From a virus: 64,000 bases of DNA. Every line of letters starts with the position of its first letter. Within the stretch, counting starts at the first letter, position 1. Where the stretch lies: the IMG/VR virus record IMGVR_UViG_3300033067_002067, positions 9,301 through 73,300 of that record; one strand, 5' to 3'. A program made the position numbers and the translations under genes. The notes below the pieces were generated by a model. It did not search any database. It worked only from the letters and a program-made list of their open reading frames with translations, and was not told the origin of the DNA. Shown piece by piece: positions 2,491-45,924 of the stretch.

Positions 2491-2583
2491 GCTTCTATAG
2501 TGTAACGGTCAGCACACGGTCCTTATAAGGCCGCATCGCCAGATTAGCGAGTAGTCTTGGTTCGAATCCAAGTAGAAGCACCA
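2491..2583 (+). tRNA. type-II (long variable arm) tRNA with anticodon UAU; identity ambiguous
   Basis: perfect acceptor gcttcta/tagaagc, A73, CCA; D gtg/cac; anticodon stem cggtc/ggccg loop cttataa; extra arm tcgc-cagatta-gcga; T-arm cttgg-ttcgaat-ccaag. Confidence 0.6.
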
Positions 2584-21664: not shown

Positions 21665-22705
21665 ATGTATGACTATCTCGTCTTTATTGGGCGATTCGCG
21701 CCCTACCATTCAGGCCACCATGCTGTGGTTTCTGAAGCTCTCAAAAGAACAAAGCATTTGATTATAGTGCTTGGCTCCGCAGGCCAACCTCGTTCTTTTA
21801 GAAATCCCCTCTTTACACACGAGCGCCGTGAAATTATACTTTCTACTCTTTTGGCAGAAGGTGTTGATACCGAGCGTGTCACGTTTGTAGAGGCTATTGA
21901 TTATCCCTATAATGATGAAAAGTGGATTACCCAGATTCAATCTCTGGTTAATAGCGTTGTCTTTCGTAAGTGGCAAGCCGGCCCTGTAAAGGTTGGTCTT
22001 GTTGGATTTGCAAAGGACCATTCTTCTTACTACCTCAAGATGTTTCCTCAGTGGGATTCAGTTAACGTAGAAACGAAAAATAAGTGCAACGCTACTGACT
22101 ATCGTAATCGCTTCTTCCGTAAGTTTACTCCTGATGAATTGGTTGATCACTTCTATATCAATCCAGTTCATAAGCAGAACGTTCTTTACTACTGCCAAAA
22201 GGCTGGTAAAGAAGGAATCTTCGAAGAAGCAGAGTATATCCACAATTACAAAATGTCATGGCAAGGCTCTCCTTTTCCTCCCACGTTTGTTTGCGTAGAT
22301 GCTCTTGTTACACAATCAGGACATATTCTGGTTGTTGAGCGAGGACATTCTCCCGGCAAAGGCCAGCTAGCTCTTCCTGGCGGTTTCGTTAATCAGAACG
22401 AACGACTGAAAGATGCTGCTGTACGTGAGCTATATGAAGAAACTGGACTTAAGGTTCCCAAGCCTGTTCTATATGGATCAATTTCAGACTCTAAGGTGTT
22501 TGATGATCCACATCGCTCACAGCGCGGAAGAACTATTACACAGTGTTTCCACTTCCAGCTTGCTGATCAAGAAAAGCTACCCAAAGTAAAGGGTGGTGAT
22601 GATGCTGCTCATGCTTTCTGGATGCCTTTTGCTGATTATGTAAAGGGTCGTGAGAAATTCTTTGAAGATCATTTCGCCATGATCGAAACAATGCTGGGAT
22701 TCTAA
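21665..22705 (+). CDS. bifunctional NMN adenylyltransferase / Nudix hydrolase (NadM/NatV-like)
   Basis: N-terminal (H/T)xGH nucleotidyltransferase motif [12 protein letters not shown]; C-terminal Nudix box RELYEETGL. Confidence 0.8.
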
Positions 22706-22716
22706 GGAGAACTACA

Positions 22717-24069
22717 ATGTCTAATATTATTCTAAACACCGACTCTTACAAGATGTCGCACTTCTTGCAGTACCCTCCGCAGACTGCATTTGTGAATAGC
22801 TATATTGCTTCCCGCGGAGTAACTGATGTAACGATTGCAGGTAAGAATCCAGAGATCGTTAATCTGGGTCTGCAGATGTTCATTATGGAGTATCTGCAGA
22901 AACCTATTACAATTGATGATATTGAAGAGGCTCGTTATATTGCTCAGCTTCATGGCGTACCTTTTAATGAAGAAGGATGGATGAAGGTTCTGAAAAAGCA
23001 TTCTGGTTTTCTTCCTATCGAGATTGAAGGTCTGCCTGAAGGTACTCCTGTACCTGTTGGAACTACTCAGTATCAGGTTCGTAATACTGATCCTGAACTT
23101 CCTTGGGTAACGAGCTATATTGAGACTGCATTGCTTCGCGCAATTTGGTATCCTTCTACTGTTGCTACTATCTCACGAGAGATTAAGAAGGACATCAAGT
23201 ACTGGCTCGATAAGACTGCAATGGATACAGCTTCTGTTCTTCCGTTCCGTCTGCATGACTTCGGAGCTCGTGGTGTTAGCTCCAAAGAAGGTGCTGGTAT
23301 TGGTGGTCTAGCTCATATTGTTAACTTTAGCGGTACTGATACTATCGAAGCCCTGCAGTATGCATTCCATTACTACTATGCACATGGCATGCCTGCATTC
23401 TCTATTCCAGCTGCTGAACACAGCACTATTACAAGCTGGGGTAAGGAAAACGAGGCTGAAGCATATCGCAATATGCTAAAGCAGTTTGGTAAACCTGGTG
23501 CTCTAGTAGCTGTTGTATCTGACTCTTATGACATCTATAATGCTTGTGAAAAGATTTGGGGTGAGACTCTACATGATGAAGTACTTCGTACTGGCGCTAC
23601 AGTTGTTGTTCGACCTGACTCTGGTTACCCTGTTACCGTTGTCAATAGGGTACTCGATATCCTGGGTGATAAGTTCGGTTATGTAGAGAATCAGAAGGGC
23701 TATAAGGTACTTAACTCTGCTGTTCGCGTTATTCAGGGTGATGGTGTAGACAAGCAATCTATTACTGGTATCCTAATGACAATGGCAGAGAACGGTTGGT
23801 CTGCTGAGAACGTTGCATTTGGTATGGGTGGTGCTCTTCTGCAGAAGGTAAATCGCGATACATTCAAGTATGCCATGAAGGCTTCTGCTATCAAGAAGCA
23901 GAATGATATTTACTGGTCCGATGTATACAAGCAACCAGTAACTGATTCTATGAAGGTATCAAAGCGCGGTATTCAAACGGACGAAAGGTTCTTGACTTTC
24001 TATGAGAATGGTAATACAATGAATATTATTAGCTTTGATCAAGTTCGAGCGAATGCAGAAGTCAAATAA
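22717..24069 (+). CDS. nadV: nicotinamide phosphoribosyltransferase (NadV/NAMPT)
   Basis: N-terminal ILNTDSYKMSHF and overall 450-aa NAMPT-family pattern; adjacent to the NMNAT gene. Confidence 0.8.
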   Translation: MSNIILNTDSYKMSHFLQYPPQTAFVNSYIASRGVTDVTIAGKNPEIVNLGLQMFIMEYLQKPITIDDIEEARYIAQLHGVPFNEEGWMKVLKKHSGFLPIEIEGLPEGTPVPVGTTQYQVRNTDPELPWVTSYIETALLRAIWYPSTVATISREIKKDIKYWLDKTAMDTASVLPFRLHDFGARGVSSKEGAGIGGLAHIVNFSGTDTIEALQYAFHYYYAHGMPAFSIPAAEHSTITSWGKENEAEAYRNMLKQFGKPGALVAVVSDSYDIYNACEKIWGETLHDEVLRTGATVVVRPDSGYPVTVVNRVLDILGDKFGYVENQKGYKVLNSAVRVIQGDGVDKQSITGILMTMAENGWSAENVAFGMGGALLQKVNRDTFKYAMKASAIKKQNDIYWSDVYKQPVTDSMKVSKRGIQTDERFLTFYENGNTMNIISFDQVRANAEVK

Positions 24070-24228: not shown

Positions 24229-24879
24229 ATGAAAGTACATTTTGGTAGATATCGCGAACATTGGATCTCTCCCTATAAGCTTCTTGAGAAGATTGTCTTT
24301 TGGAAGGATTGGGAGAAGTATCACGCTGAACATGAAGATGATGTCTGGTGGGTTGAAAAAGCAACTGATATTCTAGGCCCGCTTTGTCGCGGCTATAATA
24401 GCGTAATGGGTACTCTATTTCCTCGCAAGATCAAGGTTCGTATTGACCCCTGGGATACCTGGGGCATGTATAATGATCTAGCACTAATCATCCTGCCTAT
24501 GCTTATTCAGCTTCAGAAGACTAAGCATGGTGCACCTTATGTTGATGATGCAGACGTGCCAGATGATCTTAAGAGTACAGCTGCTCCACCCAAAGAGAAC
24601 GAATGGGATACAGACGATAATCATTTTAAGCGCTGGGATTGGATTCTCGCTGAAATGATCTGGGCGTTTGATTCTATTGTCAATGAGGATAAGTATGAAG
24701 ATACTTTCTGGATCCAGCGCGGTGAAGGAATGCATAGCGAGAAGCGTGAAGACGGAAATTATGAAATTAAGTGGGGGATTGAACCCAAGCTAGATCGCGA
24801 AAAGCGTGATGCGCATTATGCTCGTCAGGAAAATGGCCTCAAGCTATTTGGTAAGTATTACAGAGGACTATGGGACTAA
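24229..24879 (+). CDS. hypothetical protein (216 aa)
   Basis: ORF. Confidence 0.5.
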   Translation: MKVHFGRYREHWISPYKLLEKIVFWKDWEKYHAEHEDDVWWVEKATDILGPLCRGYNSVMGTLFPRKIKVRIDPWDTWGMYNDLALIILPMLIQLQKTKHGAPYVDDADVPDDLKSTAAPPKENEWDTDDNHFKRWDWILAEMIWAFDSIVNEDKYEDTFWIQRGEGMHSEKREDGNYEIKWGIEPKLDREKRDAHYARQENGLKLFGKYYRGLWD

Positions 24880-25385
24880 TGAATATTGAACTAATTACTC
24901 GTGACAATTGTGAGTTCTGTGCCAAGGCAAAAGAATTCTTGGCCATTGAGCAGATTGCATACTATGAATACAATCTGACAAAAGGCGATATTACTCGCGA
25001 TGAGGTATATGCCAAGCTAGGAAAGTCTACAGATGAAAAAGTTACTCTTCCTGTTGTTTTTATTGATACTGAGTATATTGGCGGCTATGTGGAGTTGGCT
25101 GAGTATTTTGCCGGGCTTGCTATAGAGCGTCAAGCACTAACAGAAGCACTTAAGAATGGAGTTTTACATCTTGAGTTCATTAAAGCTGATGGTTCTCTTC
25201 GTAAGATGAACGCCACCCTAAATAAACATAAGATCTTTAATGACGATACGTTCTCTTCTTTCCGTGAGGAAGATGAGAATAAAGGTTCACCACACAAGCT
25301 GTCTGTTTATGATATCGACAAAAGTGCTTGGCGTTCTTTTCGTTTTGATAGACTTAAGTCATGGAAACAGGTGGAATTGTCATGA
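24870..25385 (+). CDS. glutaredoxin (NrdC/NrdH-like, CEFC active site) fused to an uncharacterised C-terminal domain
   Basis: ELITRDNCEFCAKAKEFL ... VVFID..YIGGY parallels T4 NrdC; extra ~85-aa C-terminal part. Confidence 0.65.
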   Translation: MGLMNIELITRDNCEFCAKAKEFLAIEQIAYYEYNLTKGDITRDEVYAKLGKSTDEKVTLPVVFIDTEYIGGYVELAEYFAGLAIERQALTEALKNGVLHLEFIKADGSLRKMNATLNKHKIFNDDTFSSFREEDENKGSPHKLSVYDIDKSAWRSFRFDRLKSWKQVELS

Positions 25386-25804
25386 GTACAGGTATTACAT
25401 TTGGCGCATGGGATCTTCTTCATGCTGGCCATCATCATTTTCTCCGCTCATGTGCAATGGAATGCGATGAATTCATCGTAGGCCTCCATATCGACCCTTC
25501 AATTGAACGACCTGATATTAAAGAAAAACCCGTGCAAGGTGTAATGGAAAGATACTGGCAGCTGCAGAATCTAGATTTTATTGCTGCAATTATTCCATAT
25601 GAAACAGAGAAAGATCTTGCAAATATTCTTGCAATGACTCAGCCTTTAGACTATTATTTCCTTGGTACAGATTATGCTCAAATTAAACTCCCTGAGCGTA
25701 TTTATAATATACTTGATCACTTTGACATTGAGATCAAGTATATCCATCGTTTGCATGATTTTTCCTCAACCGATCTTAGAAAGAGAATTAGAGCTAAGAA
25801 ATGA
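25382..25804 (+). CDS. cytidylyl/adenylyl-transferase-like nucleotidyltransferase (RfaE domain II / TagD-like; candidate heptose-1-P nucleotidyltransferase)
   Basis: GAWDLLHAGHHHFL ... FIVGLHID matches the (H/T)xGH plus LIVAV..D pattern of HldE-C/TagD; internal Met start chosen for its SD. Confidence 0.65.
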   Translation: MSTGITFGAWDLLHAGHHHFLRSCAMECDEFIVGLHIDPSIERPDIKEKPVQGVMERYWQLQNLDFIAAIIPYETEKDLANILAMTQPLDYYFLGTDYAQIKLPERIYNILDHFDIEIKYIHRLHDFSSTDLRKRIRAKK

Positions 25805-26418
25805 TTAAACCAAAGATTGTAACTGAACATCCGATTGCATATGAAAGTCATGATCATCTCGTTCCTAAGGGAACCGTGAATGACAACACCAAGAACGAAG
25901 CTTATGTAAAGGAGCTCATCTCTCGCTTTGACGAGAATATGAAGTATATGGACCTGGGCTGTGCTGGTGGTGGCTTTGTAGCTCAGTTCCTAGAAAGAGG
26001 CGTATTTGCCGTAGGTGTAGAGGGTTCAGACCTTAACCAGAGAACCAAGAGAGCGGAATGGGCTGTGTGGCCTGATTATCTGTTTACTGCAGATATCACT
26101 AAGCCATTTCACTTCGTAGATGAGGACGATCGTCAGATTTTATTTGAAGCTCTCAGTGCATTTGACGTACTAGAGCATATTCATAAGCACGATCTTCCTA
26201 ACCTAATCACCAATATCAATCGCAACCTGCGAATTGGTGGTGTGTTTGTAGCTTCTATTGCTACATTTGAAGATAAGGACTATCACGTAACACTGGAAGA
26301 AAAGCCCTGGTGGAATGAGCAATTTGAAGCTCTTGGCTTCCGTGAGACCTGGACACTTAAGCAGTTTGGTCGCTGGTCTTCTATTTGCGTTGTATATGAG
26401 AAGGTAAGTGATGTATAA
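25801..26418 (+). CDS. SAM-dependent methyltransferase
   Basis: motif I MDLGCAGGGFV and following acidic residue in a Rossmann pattern. Confidence 0.6.
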   Translation: MIKPKIVTEHPIAYESHDHLVPKGTVNDNTKNEAYVKELISRFDENMKYMDLGCAGGGFVAQFLERGVFAVGVEGSDLNQRTKRAEWAVWPDYLFTADITKPFHFVDEDDRQILFEALSAFDVLEHIHKHDLPNLITNINRNLRIGGVFVASIATFEDKDYHVTLEEKPWWNEQFEALGFRETWTLKQFGRWSSICVVYEKVSDV

Positions 26419-27511
26419 AAGCAATCAGAAGAAAGCAATTGTAACTGGTATTTCTGGTTACATTGCTCCTATTCTCTGCAGAATGTTGAAAGAGCAGGGG
26501 TACTTTGTCATTGGATGTGACGTCACTGCAGTTGGTGGTCGACTGGGCGATGCTCATAAGAAGTATGTTGACATTGTCAAGTACGTAGACTTCTGCAGTG
26601 ATGAGTTTATTAAACTAATTAGCAATTATAAAGATGCAACAGTATTTCATTTAGCAGCCAGTTCACTGCTGGGGCCTTCATTCTATAACCCTGAAGAATA
26701 TTTCTTTAACAATACTGTCAAGACTTTTAAGCTGCTTGAATTCTTGAATCGTAATAGGTTCGGAAGATTCATTTTTGCTTCTACAGCAGCTGTATATTCT
26801 GAAAAGCAGATTAGAAAGTCTGTATGGAAGGGATTGTTTGGTCAAAATGATCTTGAACAGATGCAATACCCTGTCAAAGAGACTGATATCATCAACCCTC
26901 CCAACAACTATGGCCTATCCAAGTTGATGACAGAGCAGATGATTGATTCAATTACCAAAGCTCAAAATATCAACCATGAAGTATATGGCAAAACTAACTT
27001 GATGGAAGCTTTTTCATTCCGCTTCTTCAATGTCATCGGTGGATATGAAAATATGGGGCATCGTTTTGATACTCCTCACATTATGAGCCAGTTGATTGAG
27101 TCGTACCGTCTCTCTAATAGACCTTTCTATATCAATGGTGACAATTATAAAACTAAGGACGGTACTTGCGTAAGAGACTATGTACATGTAATGGATGTTT
27201 GCCGCGCAATGATTCATGTTGATCTGTGGGCAGATGATCAAAATTTTCGCGAGGCTCGACACCTGAAGTTTAATCTTGGAACAGGTAAAGGTCATACCAA
27301 CAAAGAAGTTGTTGATACTTTCTGTAAAATTACAAGCCCGCATATCGATAAGAAACCCTTTGATGTAAAGATGCGTGGTCCTAGACCCGGCGATCCTCCT
27401 TATCTGGTTGCAGACCCTAAACTCTTCATTGACACTACAGGCTTCACCTATAAATATTCAGATAATCTTGAATCAATGATTGAAAGTGCATGGAGAGCAT
27501 ATAATGTTTGA
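26408..27511 (+). CDS. NAD-dependent sugar epimerase/dehydratase (SDR, GalE-like)
   Basis: N-terminal IVTGISGYIAP glycine motif; catalytic YGLSK (YxxxK). Confidence 0.75.
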   Translation: MMYKSNQKKAIVTGISGYIAPILCRMLKEQGYFVIGCDVTAVGGRLGDAHKKYVDIVKYVDFCSDEFIKLISNYKDATVFHLAASSLLGPSFYNPEEYFFNNTVKTFKLLEFLNRNRFGRFIFASTAAVYSEKQIRKSVWKGLFGQNDLEQMQYPVKETDIINPPNNYGLSKLMTEQMIDSITKAQNINHEVYGKTNLMEAFSFRFFNVIGGYENMGHRFDTPHIMSQLIESYRLSNRPFYINGDNYKTKDGTCVRDYVHVMDVCRAMIHVDLWADDQNFREARHLKFNLGTGKGHTNKEVVDTFCKITSPHIDKKPFDVKMRGPRPGDPPYLVADPKLFIDTTGFTYKYSDNLESMIESAWRAYNV

Positions 27512-28502
27512 AGAGAATGAAATCTCAGAAAAGTCAATGGGCGGTACAGAGCAATGCAAGCGCTCTATTGCTGCTAGAATCCCAGCAGAACTAAACGATA
27601 ACTTCCAGGTCATTTGCTCACGTGTTCGTGAATTGCAGAATGATAAGATTCGCGTGTATTGGGTGCACGATCTTGCTACAGACCCAGAAACTAACCATCT
27701 CAAGGATGAAGCTTCAAGAGCTCGATTCCACAAAATTGTATTCTGTGGCAATTGGCAGTACAACCAGTACTTGCAGATTGGCGTCCCCCCAACCAATCAG
27801 GTAGCTGTAATTGATACGCCAATTGTCCCATTTGATATAAAGCCCAAGAAGTTTGATGATGGGAAGATCCGAATCATCTATACATCAACTCCCCAGCGCG
27901 GTCTTTCGATGCTGGTACCTGTGTTTACCAAGCTGACAGAGAAGTACGAGAATATTCATCTTGATGTATTCTCTTCATTTGGCATCTATGGGTGGCCAGA
28001 GGCTGACAAGCAGTTTGAAGAAATCTATGCAATTTGTCGTTCGCATCCCCAGATTACTTACCATGGTTTCCAGCCTAACGAAAAGGTTCGTGAAGCTCTG
28101 GAAAATGCGCATATCTTTGCATACCCATCAATTTGGCCAGAATGTAACTCTCGCTCTCTCATCGAAGCAATGAGCGCTGGTCTTCTTTGCTTGCATCCCA
28201 ACTTTGCTGGTCTATCTGATACGTCTGGCAATCTAACTGCTATGTACCAGTGGGATGAAGACGGCAACAGACATATCAACCTATTCTATCAGCTTCTTGA
28301 TCAGTCAATTAAGATTGTGCAGGAAGAGCAAACTCAGAATTATCTGGCATTCGTTAAGGCGTACGCCGATACTAGATATAGTATTGATAAAATTGCTGGC
28401 CAATGGCAGGACATGATGAGTGTATTGAACGCTCAGTATCCTACAGTTGAATCTCGAGCAATTCCTAAGTTTGAACCTACCTTTATGTATCGAGCAGGAT
28501 AA
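27480..28502 (+). CDS. GT-B (GT4-like) glycosyltransferase
   Basis: C-terminal E..S...IEAMSAGL.C nucleotide-sugar binding motif typical of GT4/GT-B. Confidence 0.65.
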   Translation: MKVHGEHIMFEENEISEKSMGGTEQCKRSIAARIPAELNDNFQVICSRVRELQNDKIRVYWVHDLATDPETNHLKDEASRARFHKIVFCGNWQYNQYLQIGVPPTNQVAVIDTPIVPFDIKPKKFDDGKIRIIYTSTPQRGLSMLVPVFTKLTEKYENIHLDVFSSFGIYGWPEADKQFEEIYAICRSHPQITYHGFQPNEKVREALENAHIFAYPSIWPECNSRSLIEAMSAGLLCLHPNFAGLSDTSGNLTAMYQWDEDGNRHINLFYQLLDQSIKIVQEEQTQNYLAFVKAYADTRYSIDKIAGQWQDMMSVLNAQYPTVESRAIPKFEPTFMYRAG

Positions 28503-29479
28503 TGATCGTCACTAAGACACCTCTGAGAATTAGTTTCTTTGGAGGCGGGTCTGACATTCCACAATTCTATAACAAGAAACCTGGATTAGTCATTTCTACC
28601 TCTATTAACCGTTCTATCAAAATTGCTCTAAACCGATGTGAGACGGATCATGTCCGTCTCTCTTATTCAACGTTTGAGCAAGTGACCACAGCTGATAAGC
28701 TGAAGCACGATAGAGTACGTGAAGCTCTTCTTTCAAATGGCATTCAGTCCAATATTGAGATCACGTCGTTCTCAGACGTTCCTACTAAGGGAACTGGCCT
28801 GGGGTCATCTTCAACATTTACAGTTGGTCTTCTCAAGGCCATTCTTGAGCATAGAGCGTACACCTATAATAAGACCGATCTTGCCGAACTGGCATGCGAA
28901 ATAGAGATTGATAAGCTAAATGAGCCAATTGGAAAACAAGATCAGTATGCTGCTGCTTTTGGCGGCTTTAATATCATTGAGTTTGATAGCTCTGGTGTAG
29001 AGATTCGTCCTCTCAATCTCGGCCGTGATAAGATTAGAGAGCTTGAGAAGAACTTATACTGCTACTCAACTGGCATTACTCGAGCTGCATCAGATGTGCT
29101 GAAGACACAAGTCAAATCGTTAGGCAAGAGCTCATCCACAACGTTTGAGAATACTTCCATCATGGTTGATATTGCCAAGCTAGCACATGTTCACCTGATG
29201 AAGGGGCGACTATCTGATTTTGGTGGCTTGCTTAATGAGACTTGGAATCTGAAGAAGAAGCTTTCGCCTGGCATGAGCAATGCTACGATTGATGAAATGT
29301 ACAAGACAGCTATAATGAATGGTGCGTTGGGAGGCAAGCTGCTGGGGGCAGGAGGAGGCGGCTATATGCTGTTCTATGTTCCTGAGAGCAACGAATTCAA
29401 ATTCCGTGATGCTATGCGTCACTACAAAGAGTTCTATTTCAGGTTCACTGAAGAGGGGTCACAGTCATGGGTAATATGA
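28502..29479 (+). CDS. hddA: GHMP sugar kinase (D-glycero-D-manno-heptose 7-phosphate kinase HddA-like)
   Basis: PLRISFFGGGSD N-terminus and GTGLGSSSTF GHMP ATP-binding loop. Confidence 0.7.
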   Translation: MIVTKTPLRISFFGGGSDIPQFYNKKPGLVISTSINRSIKIALNRCETDHVRLSYSTFEQVTTADKLKHDRVREALLSNGIQSNIEITSFSDVPTKGTGLGSSSTFTVGLLKAILEHRAYTYNKTDLAELACEIEIDKLNEPIGKQDQYAAAFGGFNIIEFDSSGVEIRPLNLGRDKIRELEKNLYCYSTGITRAASDVLKTQVKSLGKSSSTTFENTSIMVDIAKLAHVHLMKGRLSDFGGLLNETWNLKKKLSPGMSNATIDEMYKTAIMNGALGGKLLGAGGGGYMLFYVPESNEFKFRDAMRHYKEFYFRFTEEGSQSWVI

Positions 29480-30060
29480 CCGATTATCTTGACTTTTATA
29501 CAACAAATATTATATCAGCTCTTTCTAGAGTAGATACGCAAAAGGTTGAAGAAGCCTGCGATTTAATTCGTAGTAACTTATATGCGCCTGTATTCGTATT
29601 TGGTAATGGTGGTTCTGCTGCCATTGCTGAACATTTCACAGTTGATTATAATAAAGGCATTTGGCAAGATACTAAAATCAATACTAGAGCGATAAGCTTA
29701 GTTTCAAATGTTTCTCTATTAACTGCATTAGCTAACGATACTAATTACGCATTTGTTTTCTCGAAACAAATCGATTCATATAATCCAAATGGTAATGGAT
29801 TAGCTATTGCCATTTCATCTTCTGGCAATTCTCCTAATATATTAAACGGATTAGAAGCAGCTAAACGCAATAATATTAAGTCAATAGCTTTAGTTGGTTT
29901 TGATGGTGGTAACGTTAAAAGCAACAATTTAGCTGACGTTATTATACATGTAAAGAAGTATAATTATGGTATTGTTGAAGATACTCATATGGTTATACTT
30001 CATTCTATTATACAAAAACTTCGTTTAGAATATTCATTAGTTGGAGAACCTAAACTCTAA
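29467..30060 (+). CDS. gmhA: sedoheptulose-7-phosphate isomerase (GmhA, SIS domain)
   Basis: FGNGGSAAIAEHF, ISSSGNS, GFDGG, E..H..I.H motifs align with E. coli GmhA. Confidence 0.75.
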   Translation: MGNMTDYLDFYTTNIISALSRVDTQKVEEACDLIRSNLYAPVFVFGNGGSAAIAEHFTVDYNKGIWQDTKINTRAISLVSNVSLLTALANDTNYAFVFSKQIDSYNPNGNGLAIAISSSGNSPNILNGLEAAKRNNIKSIALVGFDGGNVKSNNLADVIIHVKKYNYGIVEDTHMVILHSIIQKLRLEYSLVGEPKL

Positions 30061-30142: not shown

Positions 30143-31213
30143 ATGGCTAGAACTAAGCGAATTGATAAGTCTGAATTTGTTGTAATGGGTGATGAGCCTA
30201 ATCTCAAAGGCAAGATTACCCGTATGCAGCTTTGTAATGCGCTTAACTGGTATAACCATTTCTATTCTGCTACAGTAACCAAGCCTCGTAATCCCGATTG
30301 TGTAGGCTGGATTATTGAGTATATGAAGTCCAAGAAGTATACGCCTGCACAAATCAAAGCGTTTTCGTCTCTTTCTGATAAAGAGATTCCGACTACTCTT
30401 TGTTCAATGGCACGTATGCTGAATCGTGGTGCTATTTTTGAGAACTCTCTTGATGAACGTATTCATCAGCTTCTCGAAAACCTTAAGTACAAGAAGCCTG
30501 AGGCTAAAGTTGTTAAGGTTGAAGTAAAGCGTCCTAACCCTATCGTTATTCTGTTTGACAGCATTCTCGATAAGTTCTATGATTCGAACTATCGCGTTAT
30601 GCCTGATTTGACGAATGTCGAAATCTTTGGCAATAAGGAAGAGCATGCTTTTGCTAGCCAGCTCTATTCTGATTTGGCCGAAGAAGTAAAGGGTAAGGAT
30701 CCTGAAGGCTATACTCATATTAGTGCTTTGGGTCTGAAGCGTTATCGTGAACTTCTCAATAACCTTAACGCTCTTCTGAATAAGAAGAAGGTTCGTACTA
30801 AGTCTGGCAAACCTCGCAAGGTTCGTACTCCCAAAAAGAAATCTGCACAGCAGCTTACTGCTCTGCTTAAGTATAAGCAGGCTGAGAAGATTGGTAAAGA
30901 TACGTTTGAAAGCGTTGATCCTGCGAAGATTCTCGAATCTACTGTGGTTTGGGTTTACAACAGCAAGAAGCGTTTGTTGACTAAATACGTAAGCAATACT
31001 AGCCCGCTTACTGTTAAGCGCACCACGCTTGGTAACTTTGATCCCAAGCAATCTATGGCCAAGAAGATTCGTAAACCCGAAATTGTTATTGCACAAGTTG
31101 CAACTGAGGGTAAAGCTTCCGTAGCACGTCTGTTCAATAACATTAAAGCCAAGCCCCAGAAGGTTAAGGGCCGGATGAACGATGATTCTCTAATCGTCAG
31201 GACGTTTAAATGA
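30143..31213 (+). CDS. hypothetical K-rich protein (356 aa)
   Basis: long ORF, SD gaggag. Confidence 0.55.
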   Translation: MARTKRIDKSEFVVMGDEPNLKGKITRMQLCNALNWYNHFYSATVTKPRNPDCVGWIIEYMKSKKYTPAQIKAFSSLSDKEIPTTLCSMARMLNRGAIFENSLDERIHQLLENLKYKKPEAKVVKVEVKRPNPIVILFDSILDKFYDSNYRVMPDLTNVEIFGNKEEHAFASQLYSDLAEEVKGKDPEGYTHISALGLKRYRELLNNLNALLNKKKVRTKSGKPRKVRTPKKKSAQQLTALLKYKQAEKIGKDTFESVDPAKILESTVVWVYNSKKRLLTKYVSNTSPLTVKRTTLGNFDPKQSMAKKIRKPEIVIAQVATEGKASVARLFNNIKAKPQKVKGRMNDDSLIVRTFK

Positions 31214-37142: not shown

Positions 37143-37248
37143 TAACCTGTTGAACTTCATGCTAACTTCCAGCTTGATGTTCGTTGGAAGTTAGCATATT
37201 ATATGGTTGTGAGAGATGCACAACGTTGTTTTGTTATGAAAAGGAAAT

Positions 37249-38298
37249 GTGAATATGGCTGCTACTGCTAAGAAGACTGCTAAGAACGTTAAGTCTGTTA
37301 AGAAGGCTTCTAACGTCGTTTCTATTAAGAAGGGTAAGATTAAGGTCGAAACGGAAAAGGTTAAGGCTGAGCCTGCTCGTCTTATCTCCCCTTGGGGTCG
37401 TAACTCCACCGAATTTAAGACTGATATGTCTGTAAAGGATATGTTGGTTGAATCTGGTCTTGATTGGACTGTTGAACGTTATCCTCTTCAGGTTAATGTC
37501 GATGGTGAAATGATTAATGTTGGCGAAGATGCTCTTCTTCGTTCTGACAATAACCATATTCTTTCGACTGCTTCCACTCAGTGGAACCATTTCGATAACG
37601 AAGTGGCTGTAGAGTTTATGGATAAGTTTGCTCGTTCTATTGGTAATCGAGTTAACTTCCTTGGCCAGGTTCGTGGTGGTCGATTGGTATTCGGCCTTTC
37701 GGAGCTTAAGGGCGAGAAGTTCGCTCTCTTTAAGGGTAAGGACGAAGTTTCGTCTTATCTGCTTCTTTCGAATCCTCATGTGTATGGTCAGAAGTTCGAC
37801 GTTCGCTTTACTGCAATTCGCGATCGTTGTTACAATACTCTTACTCAGGGTCTTTCGCGAAACGGTGATCTCGAAGTTCGTATTTCGCATCGCAAGAAGT
37901 TTGATCCGGCTTTTGCCGAGCAGGCGCTTATTGCTGCTCGCGGTAATATGAAGAAGTATCAGGAGATGTCGGAGCTTCTCGCTTCGAAGCGTTTCTCCGA
38001 AGATACTCTGATTGAGTATTACCATACCGTTTTCCCGACTCTTTCGAATAAGAAGGGTCGCGATCCCAAGAAGCTTTCGCGTCCTGGTCAGATGGCTTTT
38101 GACGTACTGGAAACTCAGCCTGGTGCTGAGCTTGGTGAGGGTACTTGGTGGCAGGTTTATAACTCTGCTACTTATGCTCTTGACCATCTTGTGGGTCGTT
38201 CGCCTGATAATCGTCTTTACGCTTCTTGGTACGGTTTGAACCGTGCGAAGAAGAATCAGGCTCTGCGTATCGCTTGTGAGTTTGCACAAGCTGCGTAA
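37249..38298 (+). CDS. conserved phage/plasmid-type protein with K-rich N-terminus (possibly DUF932-like), 349 aa
   Basis: long ORF with even codon usage; the 351-aa ORF on the opposite strand is its mirror shadow. Confidence 0.55.
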   Translation: MNMAATAKKTAKNVKSVKKASNVVSIKKGKIKVETEKVKAEPARLISPWGRNSTEFKTDMSVKDMLVESGLDWTVERYPLQVNVDGEMINVGEDALLRSDNNHILSTASTQWNHFDNEVAVEFMDKFARSIGNRVNFLGQVRGGRLVFGLSELKGEKFALFKGKDEVSSYLLLSNPHVYGQKFDVRFTAIRDRCYNTLTQGLSRNGDLEVRISHRKKFDPAFAEQALIAARGNMKKYQEMSELLASKRFSEDTLIEYYHTVFPTLSNKKGRDPKKLSRPGQMAFDVLETQPGAELGEGTWWQVYNSATYALDHLVGRSPDNRLYASWYGLNRAKKNQALRIACEFAQAA

Positions 38299-43411: not shown

Positions 43412-43572
43412 TTCTATTAGGACTGATTTTCGCAATATTAGTGTTGGTGTTTCTTGCAGTTATTATCTTCCGGGGCTACCTGAACGATGAAGCTATGCGA
43501 AAGCAAGAAGTTGAGAATGAAGTGAAGAAAGCCTTGAAGGCAATTAAGGAGAATGAAAATGGGAAGTCGTAA
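43408..43572 (+). CDS. small membrane protein (54 aa)
   Basis: N-terminal TM then charged coiled segment. Confidence 0.35.
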   Translation: MILLGLIFAILVLVFLAVIIFRGYLNDEAMRKQEVENEVKKALKAIKENENGKS

Positions 43573-44428
43573 TGGTGTGTTTGCTCCTATCTTTGGTGCA
43601 ATCGCAGTAGTAGCTACTATTATGTTGTTTTTTGGTACCTACTTCACAGTAAGTGAGAATGAGCGAGCAGTTCTGACTCGATTTGGTCAGATTCAGTCAG
43701 TTCGCGACCCTGGTCTGCATTTCAAGTTGCCTTTCGTTAATAGCACTGCATTCTATCGCATTGACATTCAGGCAACTGGTCCTAAGCAGCCAGTGAATAC
43801 GTATACGATTGATAACCAGGAAGTAGACGTTCTGTTTACTATCCACTATCGAATCGATCCTAAGAGCATTGAATTCATCTATCGTAATGCTCAGGATTAT
43901 CAGCCCCGTCTAGAAGCAATGGCTATTGACCGCTTGAAGGCTGAAATGGGTAAGATTAACGTAGCTCATGTTGCTGAAAAGCGCGGATTGCTTCGTGATT
44001 CAATCAAGAATGCAATTGCAGTTGATGCTCTTGAGAAGTATGGTGTAACGGTTGTTGACTTCCAGCTGACGAATCTTGAATATACCAAGTCGTTTAAGGC
44101 CGCCGTTGAAGCTGCAGCTGCTGCCAAAGCAAACGTTGAAACTCGTGAACAGGAACGTGTTCAAGCTCTCTTGACTGCAGAGCGTATGCGAGTTGAAGCA
44201 AAGGGTAAGGCTGACTCTTATCTCTTCGAACGTGAAGCTGAAGCTAAGGGTATTAAGTTGAAGGGTGAAGCTGAAGCTGCTGCTATTAAGGCACGTGCTG
44301 ATGCTCTTGCTTCTAACGCCCAGCTTGTTGAACTTGAAAAGGCTCAGAAGTGGGATGGTCAGTTGCCCAAGCAGATTTTTGCTGGTGCACCTGTGCCCTT
44401 TATGCCAATTGATCAGGTGAAGAAGTAA
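43553..44428 (+). CDS. SPFH/Band-7 (prohibitin/HflK-like) domain protein
   Basis: N-terminal TM plus VLTRFGQI..V..PGLHFKLPF SPFH core plus C-terminal EA-rich coiled coil. Confidence 0.7.
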   Translation: MKMGSRNGVFAPIFGAIAVVATIMLFFGTYFTVSENERAVLTRFGQIQSVRDPGLHFKLPFVNSTAFYRIDIQATGPKQPVNTYTIDNQEVDVLFTIHYRIDPKSIEFIYRNAQDYQPRLEAMAIDRLKAEMGKINVAHVAEKRGLLRDSIKNAIAVDALEKYGVTVVDFQLTNLEYTKSFKAAVEAAAAAKANVETREQERVQALLTAERMRVEAKGKADSYLFEREAEAKGIKLKGEAEAAAIKARADALASNAQLVELEKAQKWDGQLPKQIFAGAPVPFMPIDQVKK

Positions 44429-44566: not shown

Positions 44567-45031
44567 ATGATGAATAAGAAAAAGGCTATTCTGGTTGATG
44601 TGGATGGTACTCTACTCAACAACAAGCACCGCGAAGGATTCCTGAGAAGGCATCCTAAGCAGTGGAAGGATTACAACTACAATATGAAGTTTGATACTCC
44701 TTACGATGATATCGTTTGGCTTGTTAAGACCCTTCATAAGGCTGGTTGTACAATTCTAATCTGTACTGCACGTCAAGATCAAGCCGATATTATCGAGACT
44801 ACTCGTTGGCAGCTTGATGAAGTTTGTGGTCTAGAGGGCGTATACGAAAAGATCTACCATCGTGCTGCTGAAGACTATCGCGATGATACGGTTGTTAAGA
44901 TCGATCTACTTGAGCAAATCAAGCTAGATGGATATGAGCCGTACATGGTACTTGATGATCGTAATAAGGTAGTTAAGGCTTGGCGCGATGCTGGCCTTCG
45001 TTGTCTTCAAGTTCAGGATGGAGATTTCTAA
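44567..45031 (+). CDS. HAD-family 3'-phosphatase domain of polynucleotide kinase (T4 Pnk C-terminal domain homologue, encoded as a separate gene)
   Basis: ILVDVDGTL and C-terminal DDRNKVVKAWRDAGLRCLQVQDGDF vs T4 Pnk [25 protein letters not shown]. Confidence 0.75.
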   Translation: MMNKKKAILVDVDGTLLNNKHREGFLRRHPKQWKDYNYNMKFDTPYDDIVWLVKTLHKAGCTILICTARQDQADIIETTRWQLDEVCGLEGVYEKIYHRAAEDYRDDTVVKIDLLEQIKLDGYEPYMVLDDRNKVVKAWRDAGLRCLQVQDGDF

Positions 45032-45411: not shown

Positions 45412-45924
45412 TTGGGCACGATAATGAAAAAGACTCCTGTGTTTATTATGCTGTGTGGCTTGCCTGGTACTGGTAAGTCTACCTGGGTCAATACCGAAGC
45501 AACTCTTCTGGACGATGAATTTGAGAACACCTATATCGTTTCATCAGACAATTTGCTGGAAATGGTTGGTCGTGAATACGACCTGTCGTATAATCAGCTG
45601 TTTGGTGATGTGAGCTATATGGCTATTGAGCGCATGATGTATAAGGTGGCCAATAAGCTGTTTGAGCGACGCAATAACGTTATTTGGGACCAAACTAACC
45701 TTTCGGTCAAGTCTCGTAAGCGCAAGATTGATATGGTTCCAGAAGGATACTATAAAGTGGCTGTAGTGTTCAACGAGCCTGCTGACCATATGGAGCGTCT
45801 CAATAAGCGCGCTCTTGCTGAAGAGAAAGTCATTCCAGAGTTTGTTATTGATAATATGAAGCGTATGTTCGTCAAGCCTACGAAAGAAGAAGGCTTTGAT
45901 GACGTGATTGAAGTGACAATGTGA
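45412..45924 (+). CDS. P-loop polynucleotide 5'-kinase (T4 Pnk N-terminal domain homologue)
   Basis: LCGLPGTGKSTW vs T4 Pnk IGCPGSGKSTWA; DQTNLSVKSRKR vs DTNL. Confidence 0.7.
   Translation: MGTIMKKTPVFIMLCGLPGTGKSTWVNTEATLLDDEFENTYIVSSDNLLEMVGREYDLSYNQLFGDVSYMAIERMMYKVANKLFERRNNVIWDQTNLSVKSRKRKIDMVPEGYYKVAVVFNEPADHMERLNKRALAEEKVIPEFVIDNMKRMFVKPTKEEGFDDVIEVTM

What the first reader, a model, noticed from the sequence alone, without database searches (positions are those of the whole stretch)
24870..30060. Phage-encoded heptose nucleotide-sugar biosynthesis, tailoring and transfer cassette
Seven co-oriented, translationally coupled genes form one unit. They are a glutaredoxin with an extra C-terminal domain; a small (H/T)xGH nucleotidyltransferase of the RfaE-domain-II/TagD type (GAWDLLHAGHHHFL); a SAM methyltransferase; an SDR epimerase/dehydratase (YGLSK); a GT-B glycosyltransferase; the GHMP kinase HddA (PLRISFFGGGSD); and the SIS-domain isomerase GmhA (GNGGS, SSSGNS, GFDGG). 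GmhA plus HddA are the committed steps from sedoheptulose-7-P to heptose-1-P in the GDP-D-glycero-alpha-D-manno-heptose pathway, and the nucleotidyltransferase would activate the product. The methyltransferase and epimerase/dehydratase match the capsular heptose-tailoring logic of Campylobacter. No GmhB phosphatase is visible in the cassette. The acceptor is unknown: it could be the phage DNA (by analogy to T-even hmC glucosylation and RB69 arabinosylation, which also use phage GT-B enzymes), a virion protein, or a host surface molecule. I am not aware of a heptose pathway described in a T4-like phage.
Basis: partly seen in the sequence, partly recalled or inferred. Interest (0 to 1): 0.85.

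Follow-up and report, generated by a model that had tools for sequence, protein, structure and literature searches.

The report
Phage heptose-sugar synthesis and transfer module
A T4-like phage carries six linked genes that very probably turn a host sugar-phosphate into an activated, tailored seven-carbon sugar (heptose) and attach it to a still-unknown target; the module is real and common in related phages, but similar phage gene sets have already been annotated and partly tested by others.

Summary
Seven co-oriented, overlapping ORFs lie at 24870-30060, and every family call was reproduced. GmhA-like and HddA-like identities are solid. The nucleotidyltransferase is HldE-domain-II-like, the SDR is a GalE-type epimerase (not a dehydratase), and the GT is a retaining GT4.

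Corrections:
- The Grx-WYL_2 gene is a backbone (NrdC-like) neighbour, not a pathway gene.
- The GT is a core gene of the Cr30/PhiM12-like T4 clade; the heptose genes are accessory inserts around it.
- The pathway is a hybrid: an alpha-type GHMP kinase with a beta-pathway-type nucleotidyltransferase.

The module is not new as a kind:
- Caulobacter phage Cr30 carries and annotates it.
- Cyanophage SynMITS9220M01 has GT-HddA-GmhA, described in print as heptose-related LPS genes.
- Tang et al. 2024 reported viral heptose enzymes and the missing viral phosphatase.
- The GT has 2,535 database homologues, and every sampled locus of its close relatives carries the module.
- There is no host carry-over: the best cellular HddA is 37-46% identical.

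The acceptor is unresolved. DNA is disfavoured: no ThyA-type hydroxylase in the window, in complete Cr30, or in the 158 kb of DLP6 examined; Cr30 avoids GTAC; and the GT is acidic and unlike known DNA GTs. My working guess is a phage protein. Interest is moderate.

The parts
24870..25385 (+). Glutaredoxin (CEFC active site) fused to a WYL_2/DUF2693 domain. It is a backbone neighbour (NrdC-like) and probably not a pathway gene.
   Evidence: Pfam Glutaredoxin 3.6e-11 and WYL_2 1.4e-13. Grx and WYL_2 are separate adjacent genes upstream of the GT in PhiM12, L006-L010 and L022, and fused in RHph_I1_18. They are present whether or not heptose genes are. Only Grx was found upstream of the GT in DLP6 and in the Cr30 cassette.
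25382..25804 (+). Small HIGH-motif nucleotidyltransferase, HldC / HldE-domain-II-like. Predicted heptose-1-phosphate nucleotidyltransferase. The longest ORF starts at 25361.
   Evidence: CTP_transf_like 1.3e-9. rfaE_dom_II 57.5 bits, E 1.2e-15, cut-off 181.5. phrog_7878 E 7.9e-25. 39% identical to Cr30 gp178. The alignment with E. coli HldE domain II keeps GxxDxLHxGH and a degenerate C-terminal SST motif; homologues start at the internal Met.
25801..26418 (+). Class I SAM-dependent methyltransferase (Methyltransf_23). Variable accessory tailoring gene, presumed sugar O-methyltransferase.
   Evidence: Pfam 1.1e-11. No informative PDB or NCBIfam match. Present in L006 and L022-L024; not detected in L007-L009; absent in Cr30 and in the JGI 164-kb contig. 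A same-family MT lies in the gene cluster upstream of the DLP6 GT.
26411..27511 (+). Extended SDR, GalE-type NDP-sugar epimerase or oxidoreductase. The longest ORF starts at GTG 26408.
   Evidence: Pfam Epimerase 1.7e-33. NCBIfam GalE 189.9 bits against HldD 75.4 bits. Top PDB hits are all UDP-glucose 4-epimerases, E 5e-33. The sequence has the TGxxGxxA, FASTAAVY and YGLSK motifs and no T-D-E dehydratase motif.
27504..28502 (+). Compact, acidic, retaining GT4 (GT-B) glycosyltransferase. A core gene of the Cr30/PhiM12-like T4 clade and the predicted heptosyltransferase.
   Evidence: Glycos_transf_1 9.8e-11. phrog_2170 7.7e-40. AlphaFold2 model pLDDT 90.5. Foldseek top hits are SdgB, BshA, GlgM, TarM, SenB, HepE and PimA. 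E213-x7-E221 and G13-G14-T15-E16 are invariant; pI 5.5. 2,535 homologues. Homologues occur in Cr30, DLP6, PhiM12-group phages, RHph_I1_18 and OC.
28502..29479 (+). GHMP sugar kinase, HddA/WcbL-like. Predicted D-glycero-D-manno-heptose-7-phosphate 1-kinase (alpha-anomer type).
   Evidence: GHMP_kinases_N and _C. NCBIfam HddA 180.6 bits, E 5.6e-53, cut-off 600. PDB 3k85 9e-45, 4n3o 1e-43, WcbL 4usk 1.7e-39. The three glycine-rich motifs I recognise as GHMP motifs I-III are readable in the translation.
29467..30060 (+). SIS_2 sedoheptulose-7-phosphate isomerase, GmhA-like.
   Evidence: SIS_2 1.7e-13. NCBIfam phosphoheptose isomerase 99.9 bits, E 1.5e-28, cut-offs 209-276. Top PDB hits are all GmhA, followed by DiaA. 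Alignment to E. coli GmhA keeps GNGGS, H61, S119, S121, S124 and H180; E65->D and Q172->E in all phage copies.

Best explanation
Six genes (25382-30060) form a phage glycosylation module.

Proposed steps:
1. Host sedoheptulose-7-phosphate is isomerised by the GmhA-like enzyme to D-glycero-D-manno-heptose-7-phosphate.
2. The HddA-like GHMP kinase phosphorylates C1, giving the alpha anomer by analogy with HddA and WcbL.
3. A host GmhB removes the 7-phosphate. Some relatives carry their own GmhB-like phosphatase.
4. The HldC-like nucleotidyltransferase makes an NDP-heptose. The nucleotide is unknown, and the Arg linked to CTP/UTP use is absent.
5. The GalE-type SDR, and in some phages the methyltransferase, tailor the sugar.
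6. The retaining GT4 transfers it as an alpha-heptoside.

The GT is a core gene at a fixed backbone position in the Cr30/PhiM12-like T4 clade. The heptose genes are accessory inserts that appear to have given it a phage-made donor.

Shown here: gene identities at family level, conservation and synteny, absence of a phosphatase in the window and in Cr30, and absence of host copies.
Inferred: every chemical step, the anomer and the nucleotide.

Acceptor (inferred, weakest part): a soluble macromolecule in the cytoplasm of the infected cell, most likely a phage (virion) protein rather than DNA or host LPS.

My probabilities: NDP-heptose synthesis plus transfer about 0.8. For the acceptor: phage protein about 0.3, host envelope glycan about 0.25, DNA about 0.2, small molecule or other about 0.25.
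For: Pathway:
- Best profile and PDB hits are GmhA, HddA/WcbL and HldE domain II.
- Key motif residues are retained.
- GT-HddA-GmhA adjacency with overlapping stops and starts is conserved in Cr30, six IMG/VR loci, ENA and JGI contigs, and cyanophage SynMITS9220M01.
- The distant variant L010 has a HAD-IIIA/GmhB-like phosphatase directly upstream of SIS-GT-HddA.
- Cellular HddA homologues sit with GmhA in 20 of 28 loci.
- As summarised in PMC11461863, viral isomerase/kinase/NT sets lack the phosphatase, and the enzyme sets that were tested make ADP-heptose.

Alpha anomer:
- The GT has the GT4 E-x7-E signature and its structural neighbours are all retaining GT4 enzymes. From my own knowledge, these use alpha-linked NDP-sugars.

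Core GT, accessory heptose genes:
- GT homologues lie at the same Grx-WYL_2...RNase H position in PhiM12 and RHph_I1_18 without heptose genes.

Phage-intrinsic, soluble acceptor:
- The GT is conserved, with invariant N-domain residues, in phages of Sinorhizobium, Rhizobium, Caulobacter and Stenotrophomonas, and in uncultured phages whose hosts are unknown.
- It is acidic (pI 5.5-6.5) and compact.
- No flippase, polymerase or other lipid-carrier gene lies in or beside the cassette.
- The top structural hit is the protein O-glycosyltransferase SdgB, and there is a weak NCBIfam SdgA hit.
Against: - All enzyme scores are below NCBIfam equivalog cut-offs.
- An alpha-type kinase with a beta-pathway-type nucleotidyltransferase has no characterised precedent. 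None of 28 cellular HddA loci has a HIGH-type NT, so one of the two may act on something else.
- GmhA has E65->D and Q172->E.
- Nothing identifies the acceptor. The fold hits are generic GT4 and include small-molecule enzymes (BshA, SenB), a teichoic-acid enzyme (TarM) and a lipid-acceptor enzyme (PimA).
- The module sits among early replication and nucleotide-metabolism genes, not structural genes.
- To my knowledge, no glycosylated T4-like virion has been reported.
- The published interpretation of such genes is host LPS modification.
- N-domain identity is lower than C-domain identity in distant relatives, which would also fit diverging acceptors.
Confidence: 0.4

Rival explanations
1. Host envelope remodelling. 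The NDP-heptose and the GT add a (methyl-)heptose to LPS core, O-antigen, capsule or S-layer glycan of the infected cell, for example to block superinfection or to stop progeny being trapped on debris. This is the reading given in the literature for 'LPS-related' auxiliary genes of T4-like aquatic phages.
For: - From my own knowledge, heptose, O-methylation and SDR tailoring are typical of LPS and capsule chemistry, and GT4 is the usual family for such glycans.
- Automated source names for GT homologues include 'UDP-glucose:(glucosyl)LPS alpha-1,2-glucosyltransferase'.
- PMC7029224 and PMC7378029 interpret rfaE, HddA, GmhA and GTs in pelagimyophages and a cyanophage this way.
- SynMITS9220M01 embeds GT-HddA-GmhA in a larger polysaccharide-like cluster.
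Against: - The GT is a fixed backbone gene in phages of hosts with very different envelopes.
- There is a single soluble, acidic GT and no membrane, flippase, ligase or initiating-transferase gene nearby.
- To my knowledge, no lytic phage has been shown experimentally to do this with a cytosolic GT4.
- It does not explain why the phage needs its own GmhA when heptose-containing hosts such as Caulobacter already make heptose-7-phosphate (my own knowledge).
Confidence: 0.25
2. Phage DNA hypermodification. The GT heptosylates a modified base in phage DNA, by analogy with T-even glucosyl-hmC and RB69/DLP3 arabinosyl-5-hydroxycytosine.
For: - The enzyme logic matches the RB69/DLP3 UDP-arabinose route: SIS isomerase, kinase, HAD phosphatase with a GmhB-like fold, nucleotidyltransferase, GT4-like GT (PMC13326640).
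- The module lies among RNR, ThyX, dCMP deaminase, Grx, RNase H, gp59 and gp32.
- The GT is phage-core.
- DLP6, whose GT is 46% identical, is listed as having restriction-enzyme-resistant DNA (PMC8228603), although 117 kb of its genome holds 1,213 AciI and 509 HpaII sites.
- The window shows no palindrome avoidance: median observed/expected for 4-mer palindromes is 1.05.
Against: - No ThyA-family enzyme in the window, and none among the Pfam hits on record for genes within about 10 kb either side.
- The complete Cr30 genome has one ThyA, with canonical D169 and N177 equivalents.
- DLP6 has ThyX only. No ThyA homologue was found by tblastn in 117 kb, and none is annotated in a further 41 kb. 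Its two oxygenases that were scanned are 2OG-FeII_Oxy_3, not TET/JBP.
- Cr30 strongly avoids GTAC (104 observed, 373 expected) and GGATCC, and DLP6 has 0 GGCC against 319 expected. That implies DNA exposed to restriction.
- The GT is acidic, and no known DNA GT appears among the top 50 PDB or viral structural hits or among the tblastn hits.
- A sugar methyltransferase has no precedent in DNA glycosylation (my own knowledge).
- Cr30 and PhiM12 are natural generalised transducing phages (Cr30: title cited; PhiM12: my own knowledge).
Confidence: 0.2
3. Small-molecule or host-protein target. The GT makes a soluble heptoside, or heptosylates a host protein, as an early takeover or counter-defence function. 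NDP-heptose itself could also be the product that matters.
For: - The GT is unusually compact (N-domain about 115 residues). Structural neighbours include the small-molecule GT4 enzymes BshA (malate) and SenB (selenosugar), at TM about 0.55-0.6.
- Its operon context is early-type, directly downstream of an NMNAT-Nudix plus NAMPT NAD-salvage pair.
- Invariant Arg, His and Asp residues in the acceptor domain would suit an anionic small acceptor.
- The role of viral NDP-heptoses is stated to be unsolved.
Against: - There is no candidate acceptor and no precedent in phages.
- The structural resemblance is generic GT4.
- Epimerase and methyltransferase tailoring suggests a structural or recognition glycan rather than a metabolite (inference).
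Confidence: 0.1
4. It is not a heptose pathway. The SIS, GHMP and HIGH-motif enzymes act on another sugar phosphate (as KdsD-like isomerases do in the phage arabinose route), or the nucleotidyltransferase activates an unrelated phosphate ester such as glycerol-3-phosphate.
For: - All scores are below equivalog cut-offs.
- The NT's PDB sequence hits are ECT (4e-10), then HldC (2e-4) and TagD (3e-4).
- The kinase/NT pairing is unprecedented.
- GmhA catalytic E65 is Asp.
Against: - GmhA and HddA are the best hits by wide margins in three independent libraries.
- SIS_2, not the KdsD-type SIS plus CBS architecture (the KdsD architecture is my own knowledge).
- HddA-GmhA adjacency is shared with cellular heptose-type loci.
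- A GmhB-type phosphatase sits in the L010 variant.
- The NT's best profile is rfaE_dom_II (57.5 bits) rather than TagD (29.2 bits).
Confidence: 0.1

Closest known systems
Caulobacter phage Cr30 gp006-gp010 plus gp178 (NC_025422), the closest cultured carrier of the same module
   Same: T4-like phage with the same order Grx - SDR - GT - HddA - GmhA - ~360-aa hypothetical ... RNase H. Protein identities to the window are 32-47%. The HldC-like NT (39% identical) lies a few genes past RNase H. No GmhB. [quoted passage not shown]
   Different: No methyltransferase. The NT is not contiguous with the cassette. Grx is not fused to WYL_2. The function has not been studied experimentally, as far as I could find.
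GDP-D-glycero-alpha-D-manno-heptose pathway (GmhA-HddA-GmhB-HddC) of Aneurinibacillus, Campylobacter capsule and Burkholderia WcbL
   Same: SIS_2 isomerase plus GHMP heptose-7-phosphate kinase. The best profile and PDB matches are HddA, 3k85, 4n3o and WcbL. Downstream SDR and methyl tailoring follows a similar logic.
   Different: The nucleotidyltransferase is a HIGH-motif HldC type, not an HddC (NTP_transferase) type. No GmhB. A crude motif check found a GGxGxRL-type NT in 10 of 28 cellular HddA loci and a HIGH-type NT in none. The SDR is GalE-like, not a 4,6-dehydratase.
ADP-L-glycero-beta-D-manno-heptose pathway (GmhA-HldE-GmhB-HldD) and the viral heptose biosynthetic enzymes of Tang et al., Science 2024
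   Same: GmhA, an HldE-domain-II-type nucleotidyltransferase and an SDR epimerase. Viral gene sets lacking the phosphatase are reported, and the enzyme sets that were tested make ADP-heptose. The role in viruses is stated to be unsolved.
   Different: The kinase is GHMP (alpha-type), not PfkB/HldE domain I. The SDR scores higher for GalE (189.9 bits) than for HldD (75.4 bits). The NT's C-terminal motif is degenerate (LHDFSSTD against (F/L)XXGXSTT). I could not read the primary paper, so I do not know whether this phage family was among those tested.
RB69 / DLP3 arabinosyl-5-hydroxycytosine DNA hypermodification cluster (PMC13326640)
   Same: A phage-encoded isomerase, kinase, phosphatase, nucleotidyltransferase and GT4-like GT make and use a sugar nucleotide that the host lacks.
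   Different: Those clusters include a ThyA homologue (D169N) that makes 5-hydroxy-dCMP. Here and in Cr30 there is none. The sugar differs, the isomerase is KdsD-like there, and no RB69 or DLP3 record appears among the tblastn hits.
'LPS-related' auxiliary gene clusters of T4-like cyanophages and pelagimyophages (for example SynMITS9220M01_203-205; PMC7378029, PMC7029224)
   Same: T4-like phages of aquatic bacteria carrying HddA, GmhA, rfaE-like genes, SDRs and GTs. SynMITS9220M01 has the same GT-HddA-GmhA order.
   Different: Those clusters are larger and lie in hypervariable regions. Here the module is compact, sits at a fixed position in the replication-gene region, and is built around a clade-core GT. 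The cyanophage GT is not a detectable homologue.

Membership tests
GmhA (sedoheptulose-7-phosphate isomerase) | SIS_2 fold, with GmhA the best match in independent libraries | tested here: met
   Pfam SIS_2 1.7e-13. NCBIfam top four hits are GmhA models, E 1.5e-28. The top 13 PDB hits are all phosphoheptose isomerases, followed by DiaA.
GmhA (sedoheptulose-7-phosphate isomerase) | Score at or above the curated equivalog cut-off | tested here: not met
   99.9 and 99.2 bits against cut-offs of 276 and 209. It is a divergent subfamily.
GmhA (sedoheptulose-7-phosphate isomerase) | Catalytic and metal residues (E. coli H61, E65, Q172, H180) and phosphate-binding serines | tested here: inconclusive
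   H61, H180, S119, S121, S124 and GNGGS are kept. E65->D and Q172->E in all five phage copies and the window. These changes are conservative but untested.
HddA (GHMP D-glycero-D-manno-heptose-7-phosphate kinase) | GHMP fold and motifs, with HddA/WcbL the best match | tested here: met
   GHMP_kinases_N and _C. HddA model E 5.6e-53, far ahead of fucokinase, mevalonate kinase and galactokinase. PDB 3k85, 4n3o and 4usk at E 1e-39 to 9e-45. Motifs PLRISFFGGGSD, GTGLGSSST and GAGGGGY are present.
HddA (GHMP D-glycero-D-manno-heptose-7-phosphate kinase) | Score at or above the curated equivalog cut-off; product is the alpha-1,7-bisphosphate | tested here: not met
   180.6 bits against a cut-off of 600. 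The anomer of the product cannot be tested with these tools.
HddA (GHMP D-glycero-D-manno-heptose-7-phosphate kinase) | Gene adjacency with gmhA | tested here: met
   Overlapping HddA and GmhA genes here and in every close phage relative. Cr30 has a 50-aa ORF between the two. 20 of 28 cellular HddA loci also have GmhA nearby.
HldC / HldE domain II (heptose-1-phosphate nucleotidyltransferase) | Cytidylyltransferase fold with the HxGH motif, rfaE_dom_II the best profile | tested here: met
   CTP_transf_like 1.3e-9. rfaE_dom_II E 1.2e-15 against TagD 8e-7. GAWDLLHAGH aligns to E. coli GVFDILHAGH.
HldC / HldE domain II (heptose-1-phosphate nucleotidyltransferase) | C-terminal (F/L)XXGXSTT motif and equivalog-level score | tested here: inconclusive
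   The motif is degenerate: LHDFSSTD in the window and HDWSSS in relatives, with no Arg at position 5. Score 57.5 bits against a cut-off of 181.5. The PDB HldC hit is only E 2e-4.
Canonical GDP-D-alpha-D-heptose pathway | HddC-type (NTP_transferase, GGxGxRL) guanylyltransferase and GmhB phosphatase in the cluster | tested here: not met
   No NTP_transferase and no HAD gene in the cassette. The only HAD in the window is PNKP-type, at 44567-45031. tblastn with E. coli GmhB finds nothing in the window, the flanking loci L015 and L017, or the whole Cr30 genome. A GmhB-like gene does exist in the L010 variant.
Retaining GT4 glycosyltransferase (GT-B) | Glycos_transf_1 domain, E-x7-E motif, two-Rossmann GT-B fold | tested here: met
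   Pfam 9.8e-11. E213 and E221 are invariant in 47 and in 8 sequences. Model pLDDT 90.5. The named top Foldseek hits are, to my knowledge, retaining GT-B enzymes, mostly GT4.
GalE-type SDR epimerase (as opposed to a 4,6-dehydratase or HldD) | S/T...YxxxK triad, no T-D-E dehydratase motif, best profile | tested here: met
   FASTAAVY and YGLSK are present. GalE 189.9 bits (cut-off 262, so below equivalog level) against HldD 75.4 and RmlB 57.5. The PDB hits at E <= 1e-10 are all GalE-type 4-epimerases. The substrate cannot be tested.
Phage DNA glycosylation system (T-even, RB69, DLP3 type) | ThyA-family hydroxymethylase or hydroxylase (or TET/JBP) supplying a hydroxylated base | tested here: not met
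   None in the window, and none among the Pfam hits on record for flanking genes. Cr30 has a single canonical ThyA. DLP6 has ThyX only, and its two scanned oxygenases are 2OG-FeII_Oxy_3. About 56 kb of the window's own 120-kb contig could not be read.
Phage DNA glycosylation system (T-even, RB69, DLP3 type) | GT related to known DNA glycosyltransferases; modified nucleosides in virion DNA | tested here: not met
   No T4, RB69 or DLP3 GT among the tblastn hits, and none named in the top 50 PDB or viral fold hits. Nucleoside chemistry cannot be tested here.
T4-like (Cr30/PhiM12/cyanophage-related) myovirus | T4 core replication and baseplate genes | tested here: met
   gp32, gp59, T4 RNase H, DNA ligase, PhoH, T4_baseplate, gp2, gp25 and gp6-like genes, plus synteny with Cr30, PhiM12 and RHph_I1_18.

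The most novel reading that the evidence does not exclude
The clade-core GT heptosylates the phage's own nucleic acid (DNA, or one of its many tRNAs) by a chemistry that does not need a ThyA-type hydroxylated base. That would be a new class of nucleic-acid hypermodification carrying a tailored seven-carbon sugar. It would also explain the reported restriction resistance of DLP6 DNA and the lack of palindrome avoidance in this window.
Probability: 0.12. Interest if true: 0.9.

Novelty: new variant of a known kind. Interest (0 to 1): 0.45.

Why it matters
Phage-encoded NDP-heptose synthesis is known to exist, but nobody knows what it is for; commentaries on Tang et al. 2024 say so explicitly.

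This analysis adds four things:
- In one large clade of T4-like phages the heptose genes are bolted onto a core glycosyltransferase at a fixed genome position.
- The route mixes an alpha-type kinase with a beta-pathway-type nucleotidyltransferase.
- The module is widespread in uncultured phages. The GT has 2,535 database homologues, and all sampled loci of its close relatives carry the heptose genes.
- A cultured, genetically tractable carrier exists: Cr30 on Caulobacter crescentus.

Together these turn 'what do viral heptoses do?' into a directly testable question. If the target is the virion, it would be the first glycosylated T4-like particle. If the target is DNA, it would be a new hypermodification. 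If the target is host LPS, it would be the first experimental support for a long-assumed auxiliary-gene function.

Tried and rejected
1. Megablast of the cassette against GenBank phages found no match. Protein-level searches were needed.
2. Literature searches for a described function of the Cr30 heptose genes found none. The Cr30 and PhiM12 genome papers are not held. The PhiM9 paper says nothing about the GT.
3. I tried to walk along the source contig (JGI 3300020577 Ga0212215_10000022, 120 kb) to look for ThyA or TET. Only about 10 kb beyond each end of the window is reachable, and it holds nothing relevant.
4. A late-promoter reading of TATAAATA at 27449, just upstream of the GT, was rejected. 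The motif is not conserved in ten relatives, and the window count (9 against 4.9 expected) is not significant. The sigma-70 scan was uninformative: 41 sites against 33 expected.
5. The window's HAD at 44567-45031 was rejected as the missing GmhB. It is PNKP-type, has no GmhB profile hit, and is paired with an AAA_33 kinase.
6. The human-gut 'Bacteriophage sp.' contigs with HddA and GmhA (L002) were set aside. They are high-GC, unverified and unannotated records with long ORFs in every frame.
7. Fold searches of the GT against PDB and viral models gave only generic GT4 neighbours and no acceptor assignment.
8. The ~360-aa protein downstream (30143-31213) was considered as GT partner or acceptor and rejected. 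It travels with RNase H in DLP6 and is absent from L022-type phages.
9. Simple host carry-over was rejected. The best cellular HddA is 37-46% identical, in unrelated phyla, with no GT, NT or MT homologues alongside.

Full report
**Observation**

All six internal junctions overlap: ATGA twice, TAATG once, and 8-13 bp elsewhere.

Three starts need adjusting against homologues and public gene calls:
- the nucleotidyltransferase (NT) most likely starts at 25382;
- the SDR at 26411;
- the GT at 27504.

The run of overlapping genes continues upstream into an unannotated 216-aa ORF, so translational coupling does not define the unit's left edge.

**What each gene is**

| Gene | Evidence |
|---|---|
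| SIS ORF | GmhA is the best match: NCBIfam E 1.5e-28; the top PDB hits are all phosphoheptose isomerases, followed by DiaA |
| GHMP ORF | HddA is the best match: E 5.6e-53; PDB 3k85, 4n3o and WcbL at 1e-39 to 9e-45 |
| Small HxGH enzyme | Best NCBIfam match is rfaE_dom_II (E 1.2e-15, against 8e-7 for TagD); PHROG 7878 is annotated as heptose-1-phosphate adenylyltransferase; PDB support for HldC is weak |
| SDR | GalE-type: 189.9 bits against 75.4 for HldD; PDB hits at E <= 1e-10 are all GalE-type 4-epimerases; has the epimerase signature, not the dehydratase one |
| Methyltransferase | Generic class I (Methyltransf_23) |
| GT | Glycos_transf_1 with an invariant E-x7-E motif; confident GT-B model (pLDDT 90.5); nearest structures are retaining GT4 enzymes |

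All enzymes score below NCBIfam equivalog cut-offs, so they are divergent members.

Alignment with E. coli GmhA shows that H61, H180 and the phosphate-binding serines are conserved. E65->D and Q172->E occur in every phage copy.

The NT keeps the HxGH motif. Its C-terminal motif is degenerate and lacks the Arg that Tang et al. link to CTP/UTP use.

**What kind of genome this is**

The window is from a T4-like myovirus. It has gp32, gp59, T4 RNase H, ligase, PhoH, baseplate genes and 25 tRNAs. The source is JGI metagenome contig Ga0212215_10000022; the phage is also seen in two Logan runs. It has no near-identical GenBank relative.

**Relatives**

The same module occurs in the following:
- Caulobacter phage Cr30: Grx-SDR-GT-HddA-GmhA, with the NT a few genes beyond RNase H. 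It is already annotated with heptose names.
- Six IMG/VR contigs.
- ENA and JGI contigs of 140 and 164 kb.
- The distant variant L010, which adds a GmhB-like HAD-IIIA phosphatase next to its SIS gene.
- Cyanophage SynMITS9220M01, which has GT-HddA-GmhA in the same order. Its paper calls these 'heptose-related lipopolysaccharide synthesis' genes.

The GT has 2,535 database homologues. The top 120 are 59-76% identical, and where a source names them they come from uncultured phages.

GT homologues at the same Grx-WYL_2...RNase H position exist in PhiM12-group phages and in RHph_I1_18, which have no heptose genes in the loci examined. DLP6 also has a GT homologue; there it sits with another methyltransferase and two further GT-like genes.

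Two conclusions follow. The GT is a core gene of this clade and the heptose genes are accessory inserts around it. The glutaredoxin(+WYL_2) gene is a backbone neighbour rather than a pathway gene.

**Origin**

The closest cellular HddA homologues are 37-46% identical and are scattered over unrelated phyla.
- 20 of 28 such loci also have GmhA.
- None has a homologue of the phage NT, GT or MT.
- A crude motif check finds a GGxGxRL-type NT in 10 of 28 and a HIGH-type NT in none.

So this is not host carry-over. Pairing an HddA-type kinase with an HldC-type NT looks specific to the phage module.

**Mechanism**

The supported core is sedoheptulose-7-phosphate -> heptose-7-phosphate -> heptose-1,7-bisphosphate -> (host GmhB) -> heptose-1-phosphate -> NDP-heptose -> tailoring -> transfer.

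No GmhB exists in the window, in the flanking loci, or anywhere in Cr30. This matches the reported absence of the phosphatase in viral heptose gene sets.

A retaining GT4 and a GHMP kinase both point to an alpha-linked donor (inference from family knowledge). That would require the HldC-like NT to accept alpha-heptose-1-phosphate, which is the uncharacterised step.

**Acceptor**

Evidence against:
- No ThyA-family, TET/JBP or other base-modifying enzyme is detectable in the window.
- The complete Cr30 genome has a single ThyA with canonical active-site residues.
- DLP6 has only ThyX, and its two scanned oxygenases are prolyl-hydroxylase-like.
- Cr30 strongly avoids GTAC, and DLP6 has no GGCC at all. 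That argues against blanket protection of their DNA.
- The GT is acidic and shows no similarity to known DNA GTs.

Evidence for:
- The RB69/DLP3 arabinose system has the same enzyme logic.
- The module sits among nucleotide-metabolism genes.
- DLP6 DNA is reported as restriction-resistant although it has many AciI and HpaII sites.
- The window shows no palindrome avoidance.

Host LPS modification is the literature default. It fits poorly with a single soluble, acidic GT that is conserved at one backbone position across phages of very different hosts and has no membrane-pathway genes nearby.

From my own knowledge, viruses that encode both a sugar-nucleotide pathway and cytosolic GTs (chloroviruses, mimiviruses, actinobacteriophages, RB69) use them on their own components.

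I therefore rank the acceptors as follows:

| Acceptor | Probability |
|---|---|
| Phage protein | ~0.3 |
| Host envelope glycan | ~0.25 |
| DNA | ~0.2 |
| Small molecule or other | ~0.25 |

None of these is demonstrated.

**Novelty and verdict**

The finding is real and correctly read at the level of gene families. It is not the first heptose pathway seen in a T4-like phage, and viral heptose enzymes have already been shown to work.

What is new here:
- the architecture: a core GT with accessory heptose genes at a fixed locus;
- the hybrid kinase/NT pairing;
- the breadth of the module in uncultured phages;
- the identification of Cr30 as an experimental handle.

Interest is moderate (0.45): new variant of a known kind.

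Noticed in passing
window 46657-47063 (+): Rfam finds a two-piece (permuted) tmRNA of the alphaproteobacterial type: RF04321 at 86.5 bits and RF01849 at 63.2 bits, both above their gathering scores. ARAGORN did not report it. A phage-encoded alpha-type tmRNA suggests an alphaproteobacterial host.
   Followed up: partly
window 10165-10240 (+): A tRNA with anticodon CUA (amber-suppressor-like; ARAGORN labels it 'Pyl'). TAG ends only 6 of 109 called genes. The DLP6 and PhiM12 records also annotate a tRNA-Sup/TERM(CTA) in the loci fetched around their GTs.
   Followed up: partly
window 10933-10993 and 11280-12722 (+): A 480-aa DUF2828 + DUF7788 protein, which I take to be Ro60/TROVE-like; the PhiM12 homologue is annotated 'RNA-binding protein'. 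A partial tRNA-like element lies just upstream (Rfam tRNA, model positions 6-65), possibly a Y-RNA-like partner.
   Followed up: no
window 21665-24069 (+): An NMN adenylyltransferase-Nudix fusion and a nicotinamide phosphoribosyltransferase (an NAD salvage pair) lie directly upstream of the cassette. Homologues are also found in DLP6 (both genes) and PhiM12 (the NMNAT-Nudix gene).
   Followed up: partly
window 24870-25385 (+): Glutaredoxin is fused to a WYL_2/DUF2693 Sm-like domain. The two are separate adjacent genes in PhiM12, L006-L010 and L022, and fused again in RHph_I1_18. This implies a functional link of unknown nature.
   Followed up: partly
L027+L028 (DLP6 1-100 kb); L001+L014+L020+L021 (Cr30): Extreme restriction-site avoidance. 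DLP6 has 0 GGCC (319 expected) and 0 CCGCGG (27 expected), and 44% of its 6-mer palindromes have observed/expected below 0.75. Cr30 has 104 GTAC (373 expected). The window shows none.
   Followed up: yes
L010 7612-8196 (+): In the distant IMG/VR variant (181-kb contig), a HAD-IIIA/GmhB-like phosphatase sits directly upstream of SIS-GT-HddA. No NT or SDR was detected within the 21-kb locus.
   Followed up: partly
window 30143-31213 (+): A 356-aa lysine-rich protein with no Pfam or NCBIfam hit (phrog_11903). It is conserved next to the GT or RNase H in Cr30, PhiM12, RHph_I1_18 and DLP6, and absent from L022-type relatives.
   Followed up: partly
window 37234-38298: A DUF932 gene on the + strand (349 aa) is almost completely mirrored by a 351-aa ORF on the - strand. 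Only the + strand ORF has a family hit.
   Followed up: partly
window 2491-2583 (+): A tRNA-Ile(UAU) gene is 93 nt long, so it may carry an insertion or intron.
   Followed up: no
window 44567-45031 and 45412-45924 (+): A PNKP-type HAD phosphatase and a separate AAA_33 kinase look like a split polynucleotide kinase/phosphatase. An SPFH/Band-7 gene lies just upstream at 43553-44428.
   Followed up: no
L014 40208-41389 (-) (Cr30 gp121): Cr30 encodes a myo-inositol-1-phosphate synthase (Pfam 4.4e-21). To my knowledge, inositol-1-phosphate is the acceptor of the GT4 enzyme MshA, so this is a possible but untested link to the small-molecule reading.
   Followed up: no
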